Part shown: positions 18,814 to 32,814 of the stretch, one piece after another
Layout of the letters: each line of letters opens with the position of its first letter
Numbering within the stretch: the first letter of the stretch is position 1
Virus record (IMG/VR): IMGVR_UViG_3300033489_000001
Span: 62,023 to 126,022 of that record
DNA: 64,000 bases
Reading direction: 5' to 3' (one strand)
Origin: a virus
Lineage: Duplodnaviria > Heunggongvirae > Uroviricota > Caudoviricetes
Translations under genes and position numbers: made by a program
The notes under the pieces: generated by a model
Databases searched by the model: none
What the model saw: the letters and a program-made list of their open reading frames with translations, nothing else
What the model was told of the DNA's origin: nothing

Positions 18814-20765
<1,952 letters not shown>

Positions 20766-20784
20766 GTATGGAACCTTTAAATAA

Positions 20785-20810
20785 CTTAGGGGCAGTTACC
20801 TGCCCCTAAG
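20785..20810 (-). terminator. Rho-independent terminator
   Basis: Perfect 11-bp stem CTTAGGGGCAG/CTGCCCCTAAG, GTAA loop on the minus strand, followed by TTATTT, just after the vWA gene. Confidence 0.75.
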
Positions 20811-20828
20811 ATCTACACCATCAAAAGC

Positions 20829-22391
20829 TTACCAACGTTTCGATTTCTGAGATACCTTCTTCTTAGAAAACTTTCCAGGTAGCGAAGCAATATCTCCCAC
20901 CGAAGGAGCAGCTTCAAGATACAAAGGGCTACCGTTAAAATCCACTACACTTGAAATCGTAATAGAGGCAGGGACTACTACGTTTGGAAGATCAAACGTA
21001 GTAGGAGGAGGGGAGAAAGGAACCACTACCTCCGTATCTCCATCCTCAGCTTCAAAGGAAGCCGCTATGTTGCTCTGAGCTTCATTAGAAAGAATCACAC
21101 CTGCGGTTTTGAGGTCACGATTTGCCGCCACACTATAGGTGCCACCCATGCCTCTAGTCGCCCCTCTGCTCATACTGGTCAAATACGAGGCATTACTTAC
21201 GTAAGCCGCCGAACTACCCATGCACGCACCTATATTATTAGCCACCGCACCAAGATCAACAAGACCTCTTGCTCCAATATGAGCTGAGACGGACTGCATT
21301 AATCCCGCTGCCTGAGCAAAGTTGCCTTGTTTGGCCTGTTCTTCAGCTTCAATTTGAGCCCGAACAATTTGAGCCAAGCCTACAATACGATCCAAAGCGG
21401 CGTCCGGAACTGTGTCCTGTTCCCCTTCTTTGACGAATTGAACTTTGACCTTCGCTTCTAATATCTTCCGTTCTTTACGAAGATTAGCATCCAAAATGTC
21501 ATAACCGAATTTCACATCGAATACATTAACGGCCCTGGGGAGAGCGCTCTTTTGGCTTTGAAGCTTAATGGCCAAAACCAAATTACGAGTTTCCTCTGAC
21601 AAAATGTCTGGTATCCTAATCGAAACCTGACCTAAGTCATCTTCATCAACGTCCACATCGGATACCACCTGAGTAATTTGGTGCCCAGCAAGCGGAGCTA
21701 TCTCTAGCACCAAGCCCGTAGCATAGGTGCTTAGAAGACCTCCTAACTCCTTCCCAAAAACTGAAAGAGCATCATCAGGGTTCTGCACAAAAGAGTAGTT
21801 TCCGTTACCGGACTTAGCTAAATTCAACAAGAAGTCCTGTTGGGCATCAAAGCCATACCCAAAAGCACTTACGCTGGCCCTCCCAATATTAGGTTTTACC
21901 AATGCAAGGATGTCTTTCGGTGTCTTTGCAGGCCCTTCATTCGCGGCTCCATCCGTAAAGAGAATCACCCGCAAAATCACCTCTATAGCTAAGTCCATGC
22001 TATTGACAATCCCAAACCCCTGCAAAAGAGCATCGGCTATGTTTGTAGAGGTACAGGCATGTAAGTCACCAACCTTACGTTTAAGGTCCTCTTTTGCCTC
22101 TTTGGTGCATCTTACCGGCTTTGCTACAACCTCAGCTACATTCGTAAATGTAACAAGACCGCAATAGTCATTAGCCGAAAGATGATCGATCAATTTAATC
22201 AACGACCGCTTCGCATACGCAAGCTTCTCCCCAGCCATCGAACCAGAAATATCCAAAAGAGGAATTATGCACAGCGGGGGCCTCTTATCCTCCACTGCCA
22301 CCGCCGGGGCTTGCAAATTCAGAACTAAATGCGCTTCGGTTTCTTGATTGAACTGGACTTTATTAAATGTGAGACTAGCATCAATTTTCAT
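20829..22391 (-). CDS. vWA domain protein (YfbK/inter-alpha-trypsin-inhibitor-like)
   Basis: MIDAS DISGS...T...TDG; FGYGFD; GNGNYSFV. Confidence 0.85.
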   Translation of the reverse strand: MKIDASLTFNKVQFNQETEAHLVLNLQAPAVAVEDKRPPLCIIPLLDISGSMAGEKLAYAKRSLIKLIDHLSANDYCGLVTFTNVAEVVAKPVRCTKEAKEDLKRKVGDLHACTSTNIADALLQGFGIVNSMDLAIEVILRVILFTDGAANEGPAKTPKDILALVKPNIGRASVSAFGYGFDAQQDFLLNLAKSGNGNYSFVQNPDDALSVFGKELGGLLSTYATGLVLEIAPLAGHQITQVVSDVDVDEDDLGQVSIRIPDILSEETRNLVLAIKLQSQKSALPRAVNVFDVKFGYDILDANLRKERKILEAKVKVQFVKEGEQDTVPDAALDRIVGLAQIVRAQIEAEEQAKQGNFAQAAGLMQSVSAHIGARGLVDLGAVANNIGACMGSSAAYVSNASYLTSMSRGATRGMGGTYSVAANRDLKTAGVILSNEAQSNIAASFEAEDGDTEVVVPFSPPPTTFDLPNVVVPASITISSVVDFNGSPLYLEAAPSVGDIASLPGKFSKKKVSQKSKRW

Positions 22392-22632
22392 AGCTTTGGT
22401 CCTTTCCCGTAGCCGTCTGGCCCAGCAAATTCAATGGTGCAGGTTGGACAACCTCAAACCAAAAAACCGCTAAGCATTTCGCAGAACGTCCACCGCTTCC
22501 CCAAACCCGAAGGCGCGGTCAGCGGCACGAGAGATCCAAAACCCAGGTTATTGAACGAAGGTGCGATCTCACGCTTCCATATCTACACCGGTACAAAAAG
22601 ATTCTTCCCTCAACCGGTGTAATTAAAAAGCA

Positions 22633-23112
22633 ATGAAAACCTCAAAAGCTAAGAGAGCCGCTCTAAAAAGATATTACTACTCGGAAACTGGGAAAGCTTT
22701 TAGAGAACAATACAAAGCCTCTGGAAAAAGAAAAGAGGTTAAGGATAAATACAAACAATCCAAAAAAGGTAGAGCTGCCATAAAGCGATACCGTTCTTCT
22801 GAGAAGCACAAAGACTACCGAAAAAAATGGAACAAAACTCCAACGGGTAAAGCCGTAAGGGCCAAAGCCTCCAAAAAAATACATGACCGAAAGCGTGCCA
22901 TCATTAGTGAAGAAAAACTAAAACGAGGGTGCGTTGATTGCGGATACAAAGGGCACCCCGCCGCCTTAGATTTTGATCATGTCAAAGGTAAGAAGTTGTT
23001 TAGTATGTCCCAAGCTGTAAGTCGCTCAATCAAAGCGATACGTGCAGAAATGGAAAAATGTGTGGTACGTTGTTCTAACTGTCATAGAATTAAGACTTTT
23101 GAAGATCGCTAA
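22633..23112 (+). CDS. HNH endonuclease (free-standing, probably homing)
   Basis: Basic N-terminal region then CVDCG...LDFDH...CSNCH. Confidence 0.8.
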   Translation: MKTSKAKRAALKRYYYSETGKAFREQYKASGKRKEVKDKYKQSKKGRAAIKRYRSSEKHKDYRKKWNKTPTGKAVRAKASKKIHDRKRAIISEEKLKRGCVDCGYKGHPAALDFDHVKGKKLFSMSQAVSRSIKAIRAEMEKCVVRCSNCHRIKTFEDR

Positions 23113-23213
23113 AAGACAAGGTAAGAAGGATCAAAAATTAAGAAAGCCACATAAGAACTCACCAATAGTGTAATTAAGCTTTTTAGACTCTGAATGCCTA
23201 CAAGGAGAAAACC

Positions 23214-25607
23214 ATGGAAATTGTTTGTTCCTACAAAATCAGTTCTGATCTTTATTTAGTCCGGCACCGCATAGATCAAAAAGAAACTCCTAAAAAAATT
23301 GATGTCCCTACCAACCATTTCTTGATAATCGATTGCAGCGGAAGCATGTCCTATGACCTCCCTAAAATCCGCGAACAACTCAAGAAGAAGCTGCCTAAAC
23401 TTCTCAAGGAGAAGGACACTATTACCATCATTTGGTTCAGCGGCCGGGGCCAATTTGGCACCTTATTGGAAGCTGAGCCCGTAGCTACCCTTGCAGACCT
23501 TAAAGATGTTGAACGAGCCATTGACAGATGGTTAAAACCAATAGGACTTACTGGTTTTCAAGAACCAATTGAAGAAGCTGGAAAGGTTCTTGACAGGGTG
23601 TCTAAAAAGCATCCAAAAAATGTTGGTAGTCTCCTATTCCTAAGCGATGGTTGTGATAATCAAGGCACTAGATCAAAGATATTAGATACCGTAAGTTTAG
23701 TGTCTCGTAAATTTTCCTCCTCCACATTCGTAGAGTATGGCTACTACGCCGATAGGCCCCTCCTTACCGCGATGGCTGAAAAATCCGGGGGAACGCTCAT
23801 CTTCGCTGAAGACTTTGACCGCTACGCTCCTACTTTTGAATCAGCCATTCAAAAGAAGCTATCTGGGGCTCCCCGCATTGAAGTCAAGCTTACGGAAACT
23901 CCTGTAGAAGGATTCGCCTTTGCTCGCTCTGACGGGGATCTTTTAACCTTTGCTGTTACTGAAAACACAATTCAAGTTCCGGCGGACTTACCCTGTATTT
24001 CCTACCTCACAAAATCCCCCAAAGATGAAGTCACAGATTTAGGTATGGGATCTCTTTTACAAACCCTGTCCCTAGGCATAATAGCAAAAGAGCACTCCGA
24101 TCCTAAATCCAAAGTAAGTGCAGATGAACAACCCATAAGGGACGCCTATGCAGCCTTGTCCCTCTATGCCATCCGGATGAAATCTAACATTGTCTTCCCT
24201 CTACTAAAGGCTTTGGGAGATATAAAGTTCATTGATCAATTCTCTACCTGTTTCGGAAAACAAGCCTATTCCGCTTTCCAAGAAGTGACTAAAGAGGCAG
24301 CCTTTGACGAGAAAAAACAGTGGGAAAAAGGATGGGATCCAAACAAAGTCCCGGCGGAAGATGCCTTTACCATTTTGGAATTAATGCAGCTCTTAGCCTC
24401 AGACGAAAACAATCGGGTACTACTTGATCACTCGTCCTTCAAGTACAACCGAATAGGGCGAGGACGCATAGATGCAAGCGACCAAATCACCGCCGACGAG
24501 CAAAAAGAGATACAAGAGTTAACAGTCAAGTTAGCTACTGAAAAGAAAGCCTCTAAAGCCAAAGAAATTTCTGATCGAATCGCTGAGATCACAAACAAGA
24601 AGACTCTAAAGTTTGAAGCTGATCCCGCTCCAGACGGGTATCCTATATCATCGCTCACTTTCAACGAGGACCGGCCCAATGTTTCATTTCTTGTTCGTAA
24701 GGCTGGGACGGTTGATCTTTCCGCTTGGATACCGGAAACACTCCAAGGAAAACTTCCGGCAAAATTCCCAACCTTTGTTTATCGAAACTATGCCGTAATC
24801 AAAGACGGCCTAGTCAACATTGATGTATTGCCAGTCAGGATTAAGGAAAACACTTACAAAGAAATCCTGTCAAAAACCTCCACAGAGGTCATAAACAGTG
24901 CAGTTGCTGATTCTCAGGGCTTCGTTGATACCGTTTTAAATCTTCGCTTACTTCCCGTGATCAATCGCAAAATGATCAAGGACGTGAGTGCCAAAACCTT
25001 CTTCCAAATCAAGTATACCCTGATTCAAGCGCAAGCCGAACAAAAGGTCTTTAACAGTTATTCCAAAGATCTTTTGCCTGATAAGAAATCGAAAAGCTTC
25101 TCCACTCAATACGGGGATGAAGCTACCGAATGGCTTAAAGAGCTAGGATTTACAGATTACTCCGGCTTTTCTCCTAAGAGCATTCAAGCTGAAGCAGTTG
25201 ACTTCTACATGGGGAAAGAGCTGAAAGTAAACCTAAAAGGACTTTCATCCCTGCCTAGTCTTAATGAACTTCGTAAACAAATTGCCAAGGGTAAGACCAA
25301 TACTGCCGGTAGCCTTATGGTTCCAACCTTCAACTTGGTTGAAGGATTCCTAACTAATGACATTTACAAGAATGCCGCTGATAAGGACGCCGTTCTAAAA
25401 GCCTGGTTAGAGGGTCAAACCAAGGCGGCTAAGACAAAGACCCGCGCTCTGATCTATCAGATTGCTCAAACAGTCTTTGTTTTAACAGTGGGTCAAATCT
25501 GGTTTAAAGAGTTTGCCACGCTCGATGACAACTCCTTGGATATAGATGTGGCCGGAACTACTATTCCTTGCAAAGCCGAGCTACGTGAGATCAAAATAAA
25601 GATCTAA
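23214..25607 (+). CDS. Large vWA domain protein
   Basis: MIDAS DCSGS...T...SDG in the N-terminal ~200 aa; C-terminal ~550 aa unrecognised. Confidence 0.8.
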   Translation: MEIVCSYKISSDLYLVRHRIDQKETPKKIDVPTNHFLIIDCSGSMSYDLPKIREQLKKKLPKLLKEKDTITIIWFSGRGQFGTLLEAEPVATLADLKDVERAIDRWLKPIGLTGFQEPIEEAGKVLDRVSKKHPKNVGSLLFLSDGCDNQGTRSKILDTVSLVSRKFSSSTFVEYGYYADRPLLTAMAEKSGGTLIFAEDFDRYAPTFESAIQKKLSGAPRIEVKLTETPVEGFAFARSDGDLLTFAVTENTIQVPADLPCISYLTKSPKDEVTDLGMGSLLQTLSLGIIAKEHSDPKSKVSADEQPIRDAYAALSLYAIRMKSNIVFPLLKALGDIKFIDQFSTCFGKQAYSAFQEVTKEAAFDEKKQWEKGWDPNKVPAEDAFTILELMQLLASDENNRVLLDHSSFKYNRIGRGRIDASDQITADEQKEIQELTVKLATEKKASKAKEISDRIAEITNKKTLKFEADPAPDGYPISSLTFNEDRPNVSFLVRKAGTVDLSAWIPETLQGKLPAKFPTFVYRNYAVIKDGLVNIDVLPVRIKENTYKEILSKTSTEVINSAVADSQGFVDTVLNLRLLPVINRKMIKDVSAKTFFQIKYTLIQAQAEQKVFNSYSKDLLPDKKSKSFSTQYGDEATEWLKELGFTDYSGFSPKSIQAEAVDFYMGKELKVNLKGLSSLPSLNELRKQIAKGKTNTAGSLMVPTFNLVEGFLTNDIYKNAADKDAVLKAWLEGQTKAAKTKTRALIYQIAQTVFVLTVGQIWFKEFATLDDNSLDIDVAGTTIPCKAELREIKIKI

Positions 25608-25622
25608 CCGGAACTAGAAATT

Positions 25623-25662
25623 AAAAAACCGGGCGAAGTATTGTCAGTCCAACTTCGTCCGG
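25623..25662 (-). terminator. Rho-independent terminator closing the tRNA-mimic RNA array
   Basis: 11-bp stem (25629-25639/25652-25662) followed on the minus strand by TTTTTT. Confidence 0.75.
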
Positions 25663-25699
25663 TCCCCTTACAGCAGCGGCTTTCTGCAATGGTTTCCCT

Positions 25700-25749
25700 C
25701 GGTGCTCTTGGCGGGAATCGAACCCACTAAGCTCCATCTGCTCAAGAAC
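25700..25749 (-). ncRNA. 50-nt mini-tRNA (acceptor stem + T arm only), copy 1
   Basis: GTTCTTG-15 nt-GTGGG TTCGATT CCCGC-CAAGAGC-ACCG. Confidence 0.65.
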
Positions 25750-25752
25750 ATA

Positions 25753-25906
25753 TTCTGCAACGTATCCGAGTACTAAACCTGTTTTAGCGTTTTGCTTGTA
25801 CCAAAAACAAGTGCCTTAACCACTAGGCTACTTCTCCCTTACGGGGGAAAGTTGGATTCGAACCAACGATTGCATGTAAGATTTAGCTGGTGGATACAAT
25901 GCAGAA
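25753..25906 (-). ncRNA. Circularly permuted tRNA-like RNA (YrlA/Y-RNA-like) A, with a Gln(UUG) anticodon arm
   Basis: Order: closing stem, T arm GTTGG TTCGAAT CCAAC, acceptor capped by C-GTAA-G, D arm GCC TAGTGGTTAA GGC, anticodon arm CTTGT TTTTGGT ACAAG, closing stem. Confidence 0.8.
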
Positions 25907-25912
25907 ATTTTT

Positions 25913-26036
25913 GAGGGCGTTCGAGGCGAAAAAGCAGGTTTTTTGCGACGGGATTCGGACCCGTTACAATCTGTTTATAGGACAGATGCTCTACCTATTG
26001 AGCTACGCTTGTATGCTTTCTCTGTTGAGCGTCCTC
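25913..26036 (-). ncRNA. Pseudo-tRNA-Ile(UAU) with a broken, extended acceptor stem
   Basis: D arm GCTC/GAGC, anticodon arm TCTGT CCTATAA ACAGA, T arm ACGGG TCCGAAT CCCGT; only 3 acceptor bp, then outer helices GAGAAAGCA/TGCTTTTTC and GAGGACG/CGCCCTC. Confidence 0.65.
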
Positions 26037-26085
26037 GGTGCCGGATCGTGGAGTCGAACCACGCTAAGCAACCTATTTGTCCGAC
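26036..26085 (-). ncRNA. 50-nt mini-tRNA (acceptor stem + T arm only), copy 2
   Basis: GTCGGAC-15 nt-CGTGG TTCGACT CCACG-ATCCGGC-ACCG. Confidence 0.65.
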
Positions 26086-26136
26086 AGTCCCACTCATTAA
26101 GAAGGTGGGCTTACTTTGATTGATGAACCTCAGGCT

Positions 26137-26164
26137 AATATACCAATCCAGAATATATTGTCAA
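26137..26164 (-). promoter_or_regulatory. Sigma70-type promoter inside the RNA array
   Basis: TTGACA-N16-TATATT with a TG extended -10. Confidence 0.6.
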
Positions 26165-26175
26165 CCAAAAATCAT

Positions 26176-26289
26176 TGCACCCGAGTAGATAAACCTGGTT
26201 TTGCCTTACCATTAGGCTATTTTTCCAGTTTATGGAGGAAAAAGTTGGAATTGAACCAACATGCATGTAAGGTTTATCTGGTGGGTGCA
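26176..26289 (-). ncRNA. Circularly permuted tRNA-like RNA (YrlA/Y-RNA-like) B
   Basis: TGCACCC/GGGTGCA and ATAAACCT/AGGTTTAT closing stems; T arm GTTGG TTCAATT CCAAC; capped acceptor TTTTTCC/GGAAAAA; D arm GCC TAATGGTAA GGC; no anticodon arm. Confidence 0.8.
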
Positions 26290-26290
26290 G

Positions 26291-26424
26291 TGGCGGGCTA
26301 TTCGGGAGTCGAACCCTATCTTGTAAGGACTAGCGGGGTGGTCCCTTTGAGAGGACCGAGAACTAATCCTGGTTAGTTGCCTTTTTATAATAAAGGTGAC
26401 GGAACCGACCGTCTGTTATAGCCC
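26291..26424 (-). ncRNA. 134-nt tRNA-like RNA, UAU anticodon, ~61-nt variable region, encoded CCA
   Basis: Perfect 7-bp acceptor GGGCTAT/ATAGCCC plus GCCA; D-like GACGG/CCGTC; CCTTT ATTATAA AAAGG arm; two extra hairpins; T loop TTCGACT. Confidence 0.7.
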
Positions 26425-26483
26425 CTTGTTTTCAAACAACGAAATCTACTTATAGCACCGATCCGAACAACAAACAACTTCTA

Positions 26484-26890: not shown

Positions 26891-27499
26891 TCAGGTTCGT
26901 ATGAACCCGGCCGGATGAATTTCGAAACCAATCTTCTTCCCGTTCTTTAAAAACTCCTGAGCGGCCTTAGCCAAAAAAGCCGAGACCAAGCCAATAAAAG
27001 GGAGGAACTCTCCTCCAGCACAAGTAGCGGTTTCTCCGGCCACTTCGGAATCGATCGCAAAAGATTCATCCCAGACCACTCTTCCAAAGGAGCCACCAGC
27101 CGCCAGAGCCCCGTGAAGGCAAGGAGTTTTTGTCCTACGAGCAAAGCCTTGGACAAGCCTGCGAGCTTCCGCGTTATCTAGGCAATCGATAATCAAGTCA
27201 GACCCAGACAAAAGCTGGTTAGCATTATCCGAAGTCAACTTGTGTGGGACTCCAATAAGTTTTACCCCAAATAAGAACTGCATTGTCTGCTGTAGAGATA
27301 GAGTTTTATTCTTACCCACTCCTGGTTTTCCATGAAATTGTGAGAGAACATTTTTAGTCTCCACACGATCATAATCAATGATCCTTAGATTAACCTCGTT
27401 CCTCAGAAATTGAACGACGTGAGATCCTAAAGCTCCCACACCAACAATTGTAACTAGCTTTTCCACTATCAATCCCGAACTGGTATTAAAATTTGTCAA
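26891..27499 (-). CDS. E1/ThiF-family ubiquitin-like activating enzyme
   Basis: IVGVGALGS, DYDRVETKN, DCLDN..AR, candidate catalytic Cys in ATCAGG; no Zn-binding CxxC pairs. Confidence 0.88.
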   Translation of the reverse strand: MTNFNTSSGLIVEKLVTIVGVGALGSHVVQFLRNEVNLRIIDYDRVETKNVLSQFHGKPGVGKNKTLSLQQTMQFLFGVKLIGVPHKLTSDNANQLLSGSDLIIDCLDNAEARRLVQGFARRTKTPCLHGALAAGGSFGRVVWDESFAIDSEVAGETATCAGGEFLPFIGLVSAFLAKAAQEFLKNGKKIGFEIHPAGFIRT

Positions 27500-28512
27500 G
27501 TTAGATCATTCGCCCCGAAGATACAGTCCTTATATGTTTTTCCTCGTTTAATTAAACTTATAGCCGATGGGGATACTCCAAAAATACGAGCTATCCCATG
27601 ATTAGTAATGCCTCTTCTTATCAGGTTCTTAATTTTATAAATTTGATGTTCATTTAATTTCCTAACTCCAGTGGGTTTAGGAGATCTCACAAAAGCAAAC
27701 TTATATCTAAAGCAACCCAACATGAATGGATCTAGTATTTCTTTCAGACGAACAGCATCGGCTAACTTAGATAAAAGCAAAATTCTGTATCCTTTGCCAG
27801 TCTTACACATAGTAGGGGTTAAACCTAAATCTTTTCTAAAACGACAAAGAAGAAAATTTAGGTCTGCTTCAGAAAAAGCGCAGGTACTAAATGACAGTTG
27901 CCCTAATCTTGAATAAGAACCATCACCAAAAAACCATAGTGCCATGGTCAATGGAGTAAGTTGAAGGTCACTGGGAATAACTTTTTTGTCTCTAAGATAC
28001 CACCTCTTATTCTGTTCCCTAAGCTCCTTGTAAGTTGATGTACAAAGCCTCAATCCAGCAGAGGTCCTAAACGATTTTCCTCTGATTGATCCAAACCTAG
28101 AAGGATAAAAGCGCACAGAACTAACAACACCAATATCCCAAAATTTTGATTGAAGGTTATAGATCCATTCAGAATGAGTTATCTCTTGGTGTATCTGTAA
28201 TTGTCCTTTAGGCGTAATATGCCCATCTCCTAACAATAAACCGTCCACTGTTTCTATGAATTTTTTGTGGGTATTGAAGTTTAGATTTATTTCTTTATTT
28301 ATGTTTGACTTAAAAACTCCTTCTACTTGAAGTCTTTGAGTCACTGTATGTCTATTCACACCCAACCGACTAGCAATTACAGATGGGCTATTGCCAGCTA
28401 AGTAACTAACTACTATAGCCTCATTATCAAGCTTTAGCGAAGGGCGACTCACAAAAGATTCCAAAAGGCGTTTTTGGCCGAATTTGCAAAAGATTAAAGG
28501 GACGAGCTTCAT
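27496..28512 (-). CDS. Free-standing LAGLIDADG homing endonuclease with terminal HTH domains
   Basis: DGLLLGDGHI and ALWFFGDGS motifs; HTH-like segments at both ends; start uncertain (overlaps the Ubl 3' end). Confidence 0.85.
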   Translation of the reverse strand: MKLVPLIFCKFGQKRLLESFVSRPSLKLDNEAIVVSYLAGNSPSVIASRLGVNRHTVTQRLQVEGVFKSNINKEINLNFNTHKKFIETVDGLLLGDGHITPKGQLQIHQEITHSEWIYNLQSKFWDIGVVSSVRFYPSRFGSIRGKSFRTSAGLRLCTSTYKELREQNKRWYLRDKKVIPSDLQLTPLTMALWFFGDGSYSRLGQLSFSTCAFSEADLNFLLCRFRKDLGLTPTMCKTGKGYRILLLSKLADAVRLKEILDPFMLGCFRYKFAFVRSPKPTGVRKLNEHQIYKIKNLIRRGITNHGIARIFGVSPSAISLIKRGKTYKDCIFGANDLT

Positions 28513-30749: not shown

Positions 30750-32666
30750 TCAAGCTGCCCAGGCCGGTTTTGAAAGAAGGGCTGTATCCAAAATTATATC
30801 CACTAAGGACTTTCTAGGAACAGCAGCAGCTCTGGCCGCCTTACCAACGGGTGTGGCGGAAATTAAAGTACGGATAGTCCGAGGAATTGCATAAGCATCT
30901 GCAAAGATCTTCTCATCGATCATGAAGCACGGGACACCTAACTCAGTCGCCGTACCGGTGACTGCCGAGTAAGGAGATTGCCGCACTTTCAAGAAACCAA
31001 AAGCAATCGGCTCTAATTTAGAATCCCGTACAGCAGCCGCAAAAGGTCCAGCTTCCTCATCGCCTACGAAGATGAAAAGGACATCCTCATCAGCCTTAGG
31101 TTTGAAGTTTTGAAGCGCCCGTACCCCAGCACCGTAATCAGTGCCACCTCCAGACGTAATGCCTCGAAAAGCATTTTCAACTCCAGCAGCAGAATTGTGC
31201 TTAATCTCAACCACACGACCAGAAGTATTGAATACCGAAACATGGATCTGATCTTTTGGAAATCCCTGTAAGAACTTGGCCAAATAGACTTTGGCTTGCT
31301 CAATGGCATCATGCATCGAACCTGAGATATCCACCATGAAGTAGATGCGGAGACCTTTGACAACTTCTTCTACGGCCTTTTTAACCGCATTGTCCGCCGC
31401 TTCTACAAGCTTTTCTTGTGTCGCCTTAGAACGAACACGGGTTGCGATATTAGCCGCCCTGGTGTCTTCAGCGGTCTTGATAGCCCTCTCCCACCGCTCA
31501 CGGATTTCTTGAACATCAAGAAGCCCAAGTTCCTCAAGGGTAGGAGTTGAAATGATCAAGTCCTTATCAGAAAGCGCCTTCGCTTCGATAGCTGCCGCCA
31601 TAATCGCTCTTGTCAGTCCCATGTCTTTAGGCAAGAGGCCCACAATGCGCTTAAAGCTTGGCTTGGTCTTGATGATAGTCTTACAGATTTTTGCTTCGTC
31701 AAATCCTTCCCAAGATTCCGCCGCCGCAACAGCCTGACCAATAGTAAGAGTCCTTCTGCCGTCTTTCGCTTGCGTTTGCTTCCAACGAAGAACCTCAAAG
31801 AATTTTGTGGAAGTAGGCTTGTATCCAACCGTACGAGCTAGGTCCATCACTGTCCGTCGAAACCCCGCTTTGACTAAACCTTCTAGCATCTTTGGGTTTT
31901 CTTCCCGATAACGAAGCCACTTTTCAACAACCTTAGGCCAACGACCTAGAAACGGATGTTGAGCTGATTTTCCAAAGCCCAGCTCTTGGTTGATTTGCAC
32001 AACAGCCGGTAGAAGCAGGACATCTCGAACACGGAATAGAAGCTTTGGGTTGAAATCTCTGCCTACTTCTACCTTAGCCTCCTTATCCGCCTTACCCTTT
32101 TTCTTGGTTTTTGTACCTTGAGGGCGAGCCACTTTACTGGTCAATAGCAGCATCGCTTCCCCAACATCACGAAAGTCTTCATCGTAGAAAGCCAGTTTTC
32201 CACCGTCAAGAACAGGATCACCTTTACGGCATTGTACAAGCATGAAAGCCGCTAGGATGACTTTCAAATCCCGGTGCTCTTGTGCATAAGCATAAGAAGC
32301 CCACTTAGCTGAGAACTCATTATCAAGCCTCCAAACCTCAGCAACTTGCCGGTAAATCCACGACACAACCTCTGGGTACAATCCCGCCGGTTGATAACGG
32401 CCAATGACCCGGTTTCCGTCTTTTACACGACCGTCGTCCTTGAGCTTACCAAGCTTGACCTTAGTATCCTTGCGCCCAATTCTACGTAATTCGTAGACGA
32501 CTTTATCGCCTTCTTCTACTACGTGAGTTACTGGCAACCATTTAGTGCCCACAACCGAAGTAGTATCAGGAATCGTAATTCCAGCTCGGTTATGGTAACT
32601 ATGATCGACATAGCCAAGAACCGTCTGGAGAATTCGTTCTGCTGGTCCTAGGTTTTCATTTGGCAT
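30750..32666 (-). CDS. Divergent Ro60/TROVE-like protein with C-terminal vWA domain
   Basis: Helical N-terminal region with DLARTVGYKP (cf. Ro60 DLLRLxHxKP); vWA DISGS, GGGTDY, FVGDEE; co-located with YrlA-like RNAs; probable start MPNEN at 32666. Confidence 0.6.
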   Translation of the reverse strand: MPNENLGPAERILQTVLGYVDHSYHNRAGITIPDTTSVVGTKWLPVTHVVEEGDKVVYELRRIGRKDTKVKLGKLKDDGRVKDGNRVIGRYQPAGLYPEVVSWIYRQVAEVWRLDNEFSAKWASYAYAQEHRDLKVILAAFMLVQCRKGDPVLDGGKLAFYDEDFRDVGEAMLLLTSKVARPQGTKTKKKGKADKEAKVEVGRDFNPKLLFRVRDVLLLPAVVQINQELGFGKSAQHPFLGRWPKVVEKWLRYREENPKMLEGLVKAGFRRTVMDLARTVGYKPTSTKFFEVLRWKQTQAKDGRRTLTIGQAVAAAESWEGFDEAKICKTIIKTKPSFKRIVGLLPKDMGLTRAIMAAAIEAKALSDKDLIISTPTLEELGLLDVQEIRERWERAIKTAEDTRAANIATRVRSKATQEKLVEAADNAVKKAVEEVVKGLRIYFMVDISGSMHDAIEQAKVYLAKFLQGFPKDQIHVSVFNTSGRVVEIKHNSAAGVENAFRGITSGGGTDYGAGVRALQNFKPKADEDVLFIFVGDEEAGPFAAAVRDSKLEPIAFGFLKVRQSPYSAVTGTATELGVPCFMIDEKIFADAYAIPRTIRTLISATPVGKAARAAAVPRKSLVDIILDTALLSKPAWAA

Positions 32667-32814
32667 GGTATTTAATCCGATCTGGCTCGCCCTTGGCACA
32701 AACTTATAAGGCTGGCAAGCTAGCCTTGAAAAAACCCCCATTATTACACCGAATAACGGTCTTGTAAAGTTACTTCCTAGCAGATTACTTGAAAAAAAAA
32801 CAGCTTTTGTGACT

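What the first reader, a model, noticed from the sequence alone, without database searches (positions are those of the whole stretch)
25753..25906. Circularly permuted RNA with a complete tRNA-Gln(UUG) arm set inside a long closing helix
Seen: the arms occur in the order T arm, acceptor (ends joined by C-GTAA-G), D arm, 5-bp/7-nt anticodon arm with TTG, all enclosed by about 20 bp of closing helix with an ACCAG/TACTC internal loop. Established: YrlA has the permuted T-acceptor-D layout, with the anticodon stem replaced by the Ro-binding stem. Keeping a true anticodon arm as well is unusual. Inference: either a Y RNA displaying a Gln anticodon loop as nuclease bait, or a permuted tRNA precursor (known in some algae and archaea) that could be religated.
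Basis: partly seen in the sequence, partly recalled or inferred. Interest (0 to 1): 0.85.

Follow-up and report, generated by a model that had tools for sequence, protein, structure and literature searches.

The report
Megaphage Y-RNA-like inside-out tRNA mimic
This is a small structured RNA of a 411-kb phage, built like a tRNA turned inside out and mounted on a conserved stem. It most likely partners a Ro60-like protein encoded just upstream, and it is neither a glutamine tRNA nor a precursor of one.

Summary
On the minus strand, 25906-25753 folds (MFE -50.9 kcal/mol, z -4.6) into a closing stem of about 22 bp that encloses a T arm, a GUAA-capped acceptor stem, a D arm and a 5-bp/7-nt anticodon-like arm. 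Twenty homologues from related huge phages keep the fold: 95% of cells are paired, 32 of 37 pairs show compensatory change, and the tertiary 15:48 pair covaries.

The Gln reading fails. The loop triplet differs between homologues (UUG, ACG, AGG, AAG, CUG, UGU and others). The arm is a tetraloop hairpin or is absent in some copies, and the phage already carries canonical tRNA-Gln genes.

The unit is one of about six tRNA-like modules in an array. Four of them share the conserved stem (CC-A-rich loop / NACUC-G, followed by YACANGCA). The array lies downstream of ThiF, in a cluster that begins with a 663-aa protein. That protein's helical domain matches only Ro60 structures at the top of the list (Z 10.3, 10.1, 8.9; next 6.6), and it carries a C-terminal vWA domain.

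Best reading: a YrlA-type Y RNA variant, absent from Rfam, that keeps an anticodon-like arm. Binding and expression are untested. The scan has seen similar phage Ro60-like/tRNA-mimic pairs on other DNA.

The parts
25753..25906 (-). The finding: permuted tRNA-mimic RNA ('unit B'), 154 nt
   Evidence: MFE fold and z-score; CM R1 hit of 121.8 bits
25892..25905 (-). Outer closing helix, 5' strand; pairs with 25754-25767
   Evidence: Helix 1 of alignment A4: all 9 pairs show changes on both sides, 96.6% of cells paired
25754..25767 (-). Outer closing helix, 3' strand, starting with the conserved G-G after CUC
25768..25772 (-). 3' side of the conserved internal loop, (U)ACUC. The motif (A/C)CUCG(G/A) is near-invariant in homologues
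   Evidence: Alignments
25887..25891 (-). 5' side of the conserved internal loop, ACCA(G). It is A-rich in homologues (AACAG, AACAA, AUAAG and others)
25879..25887 (-). Inner closing helix, 5' strand; pairs with 25772-25780
   Evidence: Helix 2 of A4: 7 of 9 pairs show changes on both sides
25868..25878 (-). Linker UACAUGCAAUC (conserved YACANGCA). It holds the YUAY-like start of the variable region and ends in C48
   Evidence: Levitt 15:48 covariation
25851..25867 (-). T arm, 5 bp with a UUCGAAU loop
25831..25850 (-). Acceptor-like stem closed by a GUAA tetraloop, with one A/C mismatch
   Evidence: Helix 4 of A4: all 7 pairs show changes on both sides
25813..25830 (-). U8-A9 linker and D arm (GCCU / AGUGGUUA / AGGC), with A14, G15, G18 and G19
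25795..25811 (-). Anticodon-like arm, 5 bp plus the 7-nt loop UUUUGGU (triplet UUG)
   Evidence: Helix 6 of A4: all 4 counted pairs show changes on both sides, 97.4% paired. The loop sequence is not conserved
26174..26291 (-). Paralogue ('unit A') with the same stem and the same T / closed acceptor / D order, but no anticodon-like arm
   Evidence: R1 hit of 100.1 bits; fold
25620..26440 (-). Whole array of about six tRNA-like modules. It ends in a stem-loop followed by a U run (about 25670-25625)
   Evidence: Syntenic arrays in L001, L008, L009, L011, L012 and L013
26137..26164 (-). Sigma-70-like promoter inside the array (TTGACA, 16 nt, TG-TATATT; 11 of 12 matches), upstream of the half that holds the finding
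   Evidence: This is a consensus match only
30750..32741 (-). 663-aa Ro60-like protein: N-terminal beta domain, TROVE-like helical ring domain, C-terminal vWA. It is the predicted protein partner
   Evidence: Pfam finds vWA only. Foldseek's best rows are Ro60 entries. In a VIA-align search of 48,161 chains the top three are all Ro60, at Z 10.3, 10.1 and 8.9
26891..27499 (-). ThiF/E1-like gene directly upstream of the array. This neighbour is conserved
   Evidence: R1 hits lie just downstream of ThiF in 12 metagenome loci

Best explanation
The element is a phage-encoded, YrlA-type Y-RNA-like tRNA mimic.

**Shown**
- Its two ends pair into a long 'handle'. This is an outer helix, a conserved asymmetric internal loop (CC-A-rich strand opposite NACUC-G), an inner helix, and then YACANGCA.
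- The handle carries a tRNA-shaped head in circularly permuted order, plus an anticodon-like hairpin in the normal place after the D arm.
- The handle therefore leaves the body where a class II tRNA has its long variable arm.

**Inferred**
- The handle is the docking site for the Ro60-like ring protein (TROVE-like domain plus vWA) encoded 4.8 kb upstream on the same strand.
- The L-shaped head recruits or occupies a tRNA-recognising host or phage factor. Known Ro60-Y RNA particles work this way, tethering or gating an effector.
- The unit is released from a multi-module transcript. The neighbouring modules with free acceptor ends (one ending in CCA, two ending in ACC) would serve as tRNA-type processing signals.

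The UUG in the loop is incidental and not a glutamine identity.
For: 1. The structure is real and under selection. z is -4.58. Nine sequences give 26 of 37 compensatory pairs. Twenty sequences give 95.3% of cells paired against 71.6% shuffled and 31-46% in slid registers, with 32 of 37 compensatory pairs.
2. tRNA tertiary signatures are kept: U8-A9, A14, G18-G19 and the UUCRA T loop. The Levitt 15:48 pair covaries (A:U 11, G:C 6, G:U 1, A:A 2). Chen et al. 2014 (PMC4201824) reported the same signature for YrlA.
3. The same handle carries different cargo. The cargo can be a permuted tRNA body with or without the extra arm, a near-complete tRNA body in which the handle replaces the acceptor end, or non-tRNA inserts (L001 8798-8912 and 18287-18376, L009 9790-9905, L008 15901-15996). 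The handle also occurs as a closed hairpin in the variable-arm position of a CCA-ending module. This is the modular logic of Y RNAs.
4. The 663-aa protein matches Ro60 structures. Full-length Foldseek gives 9kop at 6.9e-8, then 9nfa, 1yvr, 9l5y and 2nvo, aligned over 529-568 columns. For the helical domain alone, the top three of 48,161 chains are the three Ro60 representatives: Z 10.3 over 254 aa, 10.1 over 265 aa and 8.9 over 250 aa. The next hit is Z 6.6 over 102 aa. Its C-terminal vWA domain completes the Ro60 architecture.
5. Synteny is conserved: Ro-like gene, about 315-aa gene, JAB, small ORF(s), ThiF, then the RNA array, all on one strand. It was seen in 10 of the 11 Ro-like loci examined.
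6. There is precedent. Ro60 and Y RNAs occur in phages (PMC4201824). Thermus phage phiLo Ro60 binds two phage Y-like RNAs (PMC12135203). Bas63 gp130 is Ro60-like by structure, sits beside tRNA genes and counters a defence system (10.1101/2024.10.10.617714).
Against: - There is no transcript, processing or binding datum.
- Pfam TROVE does not hit anywhere in the complete genome. The Ro60 assignment rests on predicted structure (pLDDT about 75). A Z of about 10 for a helical repeat is not by itself decisive. Foldseek on the helical domain alone gives E values of only 0.3-0.8.
- The Rfam YrlA model (RF02553, gathering score 69 bits) does not match the unit even at E <= 10.
- The published Ro-site motif GNCGAAN0-1G on the 5' strand is absent. 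The conserved motif here is (A/C)CUCG(G/A) on the 3' strand.
- The array abuts ThiF, not the Ro-like gene, which is six genes away.
- One locus (L010) has the Ro-like gene and ThiF but no array within 10 kb.
Confidence: 0.65

Rival explanations
1. tRNA decoy. The anticodon-like arm, with or without the Ro-like protein, is presented as bait or a competitive substrate. The target would be an enzyme that reads anticodon loops, such as a host anticodon nuclease of a defence system or a modification enzyme such as TrmD.
For: The arm keeps anticodon-arm geometry in most homologues: a 5-bp stem with all counted pairs covarying, and a 7-nt loop, most with pyrimidine-32 and U33. The 3' half of the loop is biased, with G36-G37 in 10 of 15 seven-nt loops and usually A38 after them, while positions 34-35 vary. 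From general knowledge, G36pG37 is the TrmD recognition element. A related phage Ro60-like protein counters a defence system (10.1101/2024.10.10.617714).
Against: The arm is dispensable. It is absent in the paralogue, replaced by a GUGA tetraloop hairpin in L012 15448-15592, irregular in L011, and has 6-nt loops in L035 and L038. No single anticodon is conserved, so no single nuclease specificity is mimicked. No nuclease or target is identified.
Confidence: 0.12
2. The RNAs work with the adjacent ubiquitin-like machinery (ThiF/E1, JAB, Ubl) and not with the Ro-like protein. For example, they could be substrates or scaffolds of a tRNA-modification-type sulfur relay or an E1-like tRNA enzyme.
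For: The array always follows ThiF directly. It was found in 12 ThiF-anchored metagenome loci and in all the syntenic phage loci. From general knowledge, some ThiF-family proteins act on tRNA: TcdA on t6A37, and TtuC/TtuB in T-loop thiolation.
Against: No PP-loop thiolase or other tRNA-modifying catalytic partner was seen in the operon. The handle-plus-variable-cargo design is what Ro60-Y RNA systems show. Earlier notes of this scan report Ro60-like/handle-RNA pairs in phages without mentioning ThiF; I did not check them.
Confidence: 0.08
3. Permuted tRNA gene. The transcript is circularised or religated at the closing stem and opened at the GUAA cap, giving a functional tRNA-Gln(UUG).
For: All four arms are present, and the re-ordered sequence is called tRNA-Gln(ttg) by ARAGORN. 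The genome encodes an RtcB ligase. M. smegmatis YrlA is cut by RNase P in its 7-bp acceptor-like stem and receives CCA (PMC4201824).
Against: The triplet is not conserved among homologues, and the arm is missing in some. The junction is a 9-bp helix, a 4-5-nt internal loop and a second 9-bp helix, not a 3-4-3 bulge-helix-bulge. There is no tRNA splicing endonuclease in the complete genome. Canonical tRNA-Gln(UUG) and tRNA-Gln(CUG) are already present. The acceptor stem has an A/C mismatch, and the caps vary in length without a conserved CCA.
Confidence: 0.02
4. A structured RNA with another role: a pure processing or punctuation element, a stabiliser of the operon transcript, or a partner of an unidentified protein.
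For: The array is a run of tRNA-like elements at the 3' end of an operon, ahead of a terminator-like hairpin.
Against: Punctuation does not need a conserved internal-loop motif that recurs on different cargos, nor full conservation of tRNA tertiary pairs.
Confidence: 0.08

Closest known systems
YrlA (Y RNA-like A; Rfam RF02553; Chen et al. 2014, PMC4201824; Wang et al. 2018, 10.1101/312249)
   Same: The 5' and 3' ends pair into a long stem. The head has the order T arm, closed acceptor-like stem, D arm. The tRNA tertiary nucleotides and a covarying 15:48 pair are kept. A YUAY-like element starts the variable region. It is encoded on the same strand as a Ro60-type gene, and it also occurs in phages.
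   Different: It is not matched by RF02553. It has an added 5-bp/7-nt anticodon-like arm, so the handle sits in the variable-arm position of a five-helix junction instead of replacing the anticodon stem. There is no GNCGAA motif on the 5' strand; the conserved motif is CUCG(G/A) on the 3' strand. The partner protein is not recognisable as TROVE by sequence. The RNA is one of about six modules in an array placed after a ThiF gene.
Deinococcus radiodurans Yrn1
   Same: It is a Ro60-bound Y RNA that can be drawn with a T arm and a potential 5-bp 'anticodon arm' (PMC4201824).
   Different: The Yrn1 loop has 6 nt. Yrn1 has no full D arm, and its arm order relative to the ends differs.
Thermus phage phiLo Ro60 with Yrl1/Yrl2 (PMC12135203; PDB 9KOP, 9L5Y)
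   Same: A phage-encoded Ro60 with phage-encoded Y-like RNAs nearby, built as stem, internal bulge and stem with a CGAA-type motif. phiLo Ro60 is the best Foldseek hit of the 663-aa protein.
   Different: The phiLo RNAs are simple hairpins upstream of the gene, not tRNA mimics. phiLo Ro60 is recognisable by sequence.
Bas63 (Felix O1-like) gp130, Ro60-like by structure (10.1101/2024.10.10.617714)
   Same: A phage protein that resembles Ro60 only in structure and sits beside tRNA-type genes. The authors suspect that some of those genes are Y RNAs.
   Different: It is a different phage lineage, and its RNAs have not been defined in print. A defence-counter role is shown there, not here.
Circularly permuted tRNA genes of Cyanidioschyzon merolae and some archaea (general knowledge; cited in 10.1101/312249)
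   Same: The 3' half (T arm and acceptor 3' strand) lies upstream of the 5' half, and the termini pair.
   Different: Those genes have a bulge-helix-bulge junction, are processed by a splicing endonuclease and ligase, and keep a conserved anticodon that supplies a needed tRNA. None of this holds here.

Membership tests
YrlA (Rfam RF02553) | Scores at or above the family's gathering threshold (69 bits) with the Rfam covariance model | tested here: not met
   There is no RF02553 hit on 25753-25906 or 26174-26291 at E <= 10. The best hits in the genome are junctions between neighbouring tRNAs, at 28 bits or less
YrlA (Rfam RF02553) | T arm, then a closed acceptor-like stem-loop, then a D arm, all enclosed by a stem formed from the 5' and 3' ends | tested here: met
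   MFE fold. Consensus structure with covariation
YrlA (Rfam RF02553) | Conserved tRNA tertiary nucleotides and a covarying Levitt pair (G15:C48 or A15:U48) | tested here: met
   A:U in 11, G:C in 6, G:U in 1 and A:A in 2 of 20 sequences. UA linker in 13 of 20 rows, A14 in 18 of 20, GG and the UUCRA T loop in all 20
YrlA (Rfam RF02553) | GNCGAAN0-1G motif near the 5' end (the presumed Ro60 site) | tested here: not met
   The 5' strand reads CC-ACCAG and similar. The conserved motif is (A/C)CUCG(G/A) on the 3' strand, and CGAA appears in only some copies
YrlA (Rfam RF02553) | No anticodon loop; the stem to the Ro site takes the place of the anticodon stem | tested here: not met
   Unit B and 16 of the 19 other homologues have a separate, regular hairpin after the D arm. 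The paralogue 26174-26291 meets this feature
Y RNA (Ro60 partner RNAs in general) | Encoded near a Ro60 (TROVE plus vWA) gene on the same strand | tested here: inconclusive
   Pfam TROVE is absent. The 663-aa vWA protein 4.8 kb upstream on the same strand has Ro60 as its best structural match. This rests on a predicted model
Y RNA (Ro60 partner RNAs in general) | Bound by Ro60 through the terminal bulged stem | not testable with these tools
   Needs EMSA, co-immunoprecipitation or a structure
Circularly permuted tRNA gene | Bulge-helix-bulge motif at the paired termini, with a splicing endonuclease available | tested here: not met
   The stem is 13 bp, a 4-5-nt internal loop and 9 bp. PF01974 is absent from the complete genome
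Circularly permuted tRNA gene | Anticodon conserved among orthologues, supplying a decoding function | tested here: not met
   At least 11 different triplets occur among the homologues, and the arm is absent or non-canonical in 5 copies. Canonical tRNA-Gln genes are present
tRNA-Gln (canonical) | Contiguous cloverleaf with a free, 7-bp acceptor end | tested here: not met
   ARAGORN finds nothing in the native sequence. The acceptor is capped by GUAA and has an A/C mismatch. The re-ordered unit B is not among the 8 most similar of the phage's own tRNAs to its tRNA-Gln

The most novel reading that the evidence does not exclude
The megaphage mounts a set of tRNA look-alikes on one Ro60-like ring. 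The set holds a complete inside-out tRNA with an anticodon-type loop, a CCA-ending giant tRNA, a tRNA whose acceptor end is replaced by the handle, and two acceptor/T-arm minihelices. Together they would act as an anti-defence particle that captures or misdirects host enzymes that cut or modify tRNA anticodon loops. The variable 34-35 positions and the frequent G36-G37-A38 in the loop would record that conflict.

A side reading is evolutionary. The retained anticodon arm may be a surviving intermediate of the proposed origin of YrlA from a dimeric tRNA transcript.
Probability: 0.12. Interest if true: 0.8.

Novelty: new variant of a known kind. Interest (0 to 1): 0.55.

Why it matters
Ro60-Y RNA particles are well studied in animals and in a few bacteria, but their phage versions are barely described. 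This locus gives a concrete, testable pair: a Ro60-shaped protein that sequence methods miss, with more than 1,500 relatives in metagenomes, and an RNA family that is absent from Rfam and unannotated in GenBank.

Three things follow:
- The family shows that the Y-RNA 'handle' can be attached to a tRNA body at three different positions.
- Published YrlA has lost the anticodon arm, but this family keeps an anticodon-type arm. That bears on the dimeric-tRNA model for how Y RNAs arose.
- It bears on which tRNA-binding factor the head recruits.

The result also warns annotators that such units are not tRNA-Gln genes.

Tried and rejected
- **DNA similarity.** blastn of the array against 50,697 GenBank phages found only ordinary tRNA genes matching the tRNA-Ile-like module.
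- **Exact DNA patterns in IMG/VR.** One pattern found nothing. The other found only the already known relative plus ordinary tRNA-Val(UAC) genes, whose anticodon loop happens to read CUUACAUGCA.
- **Home-made handle scanners.** Two scripts over the genome were too noisy to count copies. They did show no further strong handle outside the array in the 411-kb genome.
- **Expression.** No RNA holder was listed for the stretch in two look-ups. The only full holder is a soil metagenome run that may be the source of the DNA.
- **Sequence searches with the 663-aa protein.** Pfam and PDB searches gave vWA only.
- **VIA-align on the full-length model.** The list was filled by vWA domains, so the helical domain was folded and searched on its own.
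- **Foldseek on the helical domain alone.** No hit reached E <= 0.001.
- **Descent from the phage's own tRNA-Gln.** The re-ordered unit is not closest to that tRNA.
- **K-turn or bulge-helix-bulge reading of the internal loop.** Rejected by inspection: there are no tandem G-A pairs and no 3-4-3 geometry.
- **Not run.** Complex prediction was not used because it cannot take RNA. I did not search GTDB bacterial genomes with the RNA model.

Full report
**Where and what**

The window is bases 62,023-126,022 of a complete 411,618-bp virus record with direct terminal repeats. This huge phage carries 36 canonical tRNA genes and a tmRNA at 217-250 kb, including tRNA-Gln(UUG) and tRNA-Gln(CUG).

The finding lies on the minus strand.
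- an outer helix of 13 bp with one U/U mismatch;
- an internal loop, ACCA(G) opposite (U)ACUC;
- a 9-bp inner helix;
- the linker UACAUGCAAUC;
- a canonical T arm (GUUGG/UUCGAAU/CCAAC);
- an acceptor-like stem of 7-8 bp with one A/C mismatch, capped by GUAA;
- U8-A9 and a D arm with A14, G15, G18 and G19;
- one nucleotide later, a 5-bp stem with the 7-nt loop UUUUGGU.

The MFE is -50.9 kcal/mol, z = -4.58, and none of 200 shuffles folds as well. ARAGORN sees no tRNA in the window. After the parts are re-ordered in silico it calls tRNA-Gln(ttg).

**It is one module of an array**

The minus strand from about 26440 to 25620 is non-coding and holds about six tRNA-like modules, ending in a hairpin followed by a U run:
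- a CCA-ending, non-permuted tRNA-like RNA (26425-26292), in which the same stem occurs as a closed hairpin in the variable-arm position;
- a paralogue of the finding without the extra arm (26291-26174);
- an acceptor/T-arm minihelix that ends in ACC (about 26085-26036);
- a tRNA-Ile(UAU)-like body, Rfam tRNA 48.4 bits, whose acceptor end is replaced by the same type of stem (26036-25913);
- the finding itself;
- a second minihelix (25749-25700).

A strong sigma-70-like promoter match lies inside the array at 26164-26137.

**Homologues and covariation**

The 663-aa vWA protein encoded upstream served as an anchor. With it I fetched related huge-phage contigs. The ThiF gene then gave 29 metagenome loci.

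The gene order is Ro-like vWA gene, a gene of about 315 aa, JAB, small ORF(s), ThiF, then the RNA array, all on one strand. It recurs in 10 of the 11 Ro-like loci examined. The exception is L010.

Nine permuted units aligned by MAFFT gave an RNAalifold consensus of 37 pairs, 26 of them with compensatory changes. A covariance model built from them found 20 full-length units at 64-140 bits. On that alignment:
- 95.3% of cells are standard pairs, against 71.6 +/- 1.0 when shuffled and 31-46% when the 3' partners are slid by 1-3 columns;
- 32 of 37 pairs change on both sides;
- every helix covaries, including the anticodon-like stem.

The alignment was fitted to the model, so these counts lean towards it. 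The independent MAFFT/RNAalifold result agrees.

The tertiary Levitt pair also covaries: A15:U48 in 11, G15:C48 in 6, G:U in 1 and A:A in 2. Chen et al. 2014 (PMC4201824) used this same signature to argue that YrlA folds like tRNA.

One homologue sits unannotated in GenBank record KX853510.1 (Virus Rctr197k), at 76.9 bits.

**The 'Gln anticodon' is not conserved**

At the homologous position the loops read as follows:
- CUACGGA (three times) and AUACGGA;
- UUUUGGU (twice), UAAGGGA (twice), UUAAGGA and UUCUGGA;
- CUUGUAA, CUAGAAA, CUUGAAA, UAUCCAA and CUUUCAA;
- two 6-nt loops;
- one 6-bp stem with a GUGA tetraloop, and one irregular hairpin;
- in the window's own paralogue, nothing.

The geometry of an anticodon arm is usually kept: 5 bp, 7 nt, and in most loops a pyrimidine at 32 and U33. 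The triplet is not kept. The one recurring loop feature is G36-G37, usually followed by A38, in 10 of 15 seven-nt loops. Non-permuted relatives in L002 and L003 show it too. I note from general knowledge that G36pG37 is what TrmD reads. This is a lead only.

The re-ordered unit B is not especially close to the phage's real tRNA-Gln.

**The handle**

All permuted units share an outer helix that ends in C-C/G-G, an A-rich 4-6-nt strand opposite N-A-C-U-C, an inner helix of 8-9 bp, and then YACANGCA. Several other elements share it too.

The same handle carries non-tRNA inserts in L001 (8798-8912 and 18287-18376), L008 (15901-15996), L009 (9790-9905) and L002 (21548-21642). A constant protein-site-like stem with variable cargo is the defining logic of Y RNAs.

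It is not the published Ro site, however. The GNCGAAN0-1G motif on the 5' strand (PMC4201824) is absent. The nearest thing is CUCG(G/A) on the 3' strand, which reads CUCGAA in some copies. Rfam's YrlA model does not match.

**The protein partner**

Pfam TROVE hits nothing in the genome, and sequence searches of the 663-aa protein see only a C-terminal vWA domain.

An AlphaFold2 model (pLDDT 74.9) has Ro60 structures as its best Foldseek matches, aligned over 529-568 columns. These are phiLo Ro60 9KOP at 6.9e-8, human and Xenopus Ro60, and D. radiodurans Rsr.

The vWA domain dominated a second look, so I folded residues 118-462 alone (pLDDT 75.9). Foldseek was then weak (E 0.3-0.8, though Ro60 rows had by far the best TM scores, 0.36-0.44).

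The Foldseek-independent VIA-align search of 48,161 chains put the three Ro60 representatives first, covering the whole domain. They were 2NVO (Z 10.3, 254 aa), 1YVP (Z 10.1, 265 aa) and 9L5Y (Z 8.9, 250 aa). The next hit scored Z 6.6 over 102 aa.

With the C-terminal vWA, this is the Ro60 architecture plus an extra N-terminal beta domain. The family has more than 1,500 relatives in metagenomes, none of them labelled TROVE.

**Mechanism (inferred)**
- The array is transcribed, partly from its own promoter, and cut into modules. The modules with free acceptor ends would serve as RNase P/Z-type signals.
- Each handle docks on the Ro60-like ring.
- The tRNA-shaped head engages a tRNA-recognising factor, as Y RNAs tether PNPase in Deinococcus, Salmonella and phage phiLo (PMC4201824, PMC12135203).

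In unit B the extra arm completes the L-shape, and the handle projects like a class II variable arm.

The phage also encodes RtcB, a frequent companion of Ro60/Y RNA loci. In one relative (L011) RtcB lies 4 kb from the Ro-like gene.

**Rivals**
- *Permuted tRNA precursor.* Contradicted by the non-conserved triplet, the absence of a bulge-helix-bulge junction or a splicing endonuclease, the variable caps and the presence of canonical tRNA-Gln genes.
- *Decoy for anticodon-directed enzymes.* Remains possible and is compatible with a Ro particle.
- *A role with the ThiF/JAB/Ubl genes.* Cannot be excluded, because the array always abuts ThiF.

**Comparison and novelty**

The unit works like a YrlA-type Y RNA but fails three YrlA membership features: the Rfam score, the 5' GNCGAA motif and the lack of an anticodon loop.

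Published YrlA 'lacks the anticodon loop' (10.1101/312249). Only D. radiodurans Yrn1 has been drawn with an anticodon-like arm, and its loop has 6 nt. The retained arm fits the dimeric-tRNA origin model discussed in that preprint. That model takes the T arm from tRNA 1 and the D arm, plus here the anticodon arm, from tRNA 2.

Phage proteins that resemble Ro60 only in structure, sitting next to tRNA-type genes, are already in print (Bas63 gp130, 10.1101/2024.10.10.617714). Earlier notes of this scan report similar handle RNAs in other phages, one with a His-type arm. I therefore class this as a new variant of a known kind, of moderate interest.

No expression data could be found.

Noticed in passing
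window 26292-26425 (-): A non-permuted, CCA-ending tRNA-like RNA. Its 7-bp acceptor stem GGGCUAU/AUAGCCC is followed by G and CCA. The acceptor stem is nearly identical in L001, L008 and L009. It has a D-like hairpin and a 5-bp/7-nt arm whose loop differs between phages (AUUAUAA, CGGUUAA, CUAUCGA, AAUCUAA). The handle occurs as a closed hairpin in the variable-arm position. The next module starts right after the CCA.
   Followed up: partly
window 25913-26036 (-): A tRNA-Ile(UAU)-like body (Rfam tRNA 48.4 bits) with only a 3-bp acceptor stem. It is enclosed by a handle-type double helix (GAGGACGCUC...GAACGCCCUC outside, GAGAAAGCA/UGCUUUUUC inside, with a CUCGAA motif). The anticodon differs in orthologues (UAU, UAU, UAC, ACG).
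   Followed up: partly
window 25700-25749 and 26036-26085 (-): Two 50-nt acceptor/T-arm minihelices, each followed by ACC-GAGG. They may be processing signals or CCA-enzyme substrates. In relatives the 5' acceptor strand lies much further upstream (L001, L008).
   Followed up: no
window 26137-26164 (-): A near-consensus extended -10 sigma-70-like promoter (TTGACA, 16 nt, TG-TATATT) in the middle of the RNA array. It suggests two transcription units.
   Followed up: no
window 25795-25811 (-) and homologues (alignment A4): The anticodon-like loops vary at positions 34-35 but carry G36-G37 in 10 of 15 seven-nt loops, usually followed by A38. CUACGGA is the most frequent loop.
   Followed up: partly
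window 27496-28512 (-): A LAGLIDADG homing endonuclease ORF with HTH domains is inserted between the JAB/small-ORF genes and ThiF. It is absent at this place in most relatives; L011 has one as well.
   Followed up: no
G000:C1:234468-236561 (+), outside the window: The phage RtcB RNA ligase gene appears split. Profile positions 1-32 and 15-426 lie about 1 kb apart, which suggests an intervening element such as an intein, an intron or a homing endonuclease.
   Followed up: no
L051 21502-21676 (GenBank KX853510.1, Virus Rctr197k): An unannotated homologue of the permuted mimic (76.9 bits) with an extra V-arm hairpin and the loop AAAUGGC. In that record the Ro-like gene follows a block of 36 tRNA genes and is annotated only as a misc_feature.
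   Followed up: partly
L011 5845-8118: In one relative, an RtcB gene and an R2K-type ATP-grasp gene lie 2-4 kb upstream of the Ro-like gene.
   Followed up: no
window 18814-25607: Further vWA-domain proteins (520 aa and 797 aa) and a Cpn60-type chaperonin flank the locus. Their relation to the Ro-like system is unknown.
   Followed up: no
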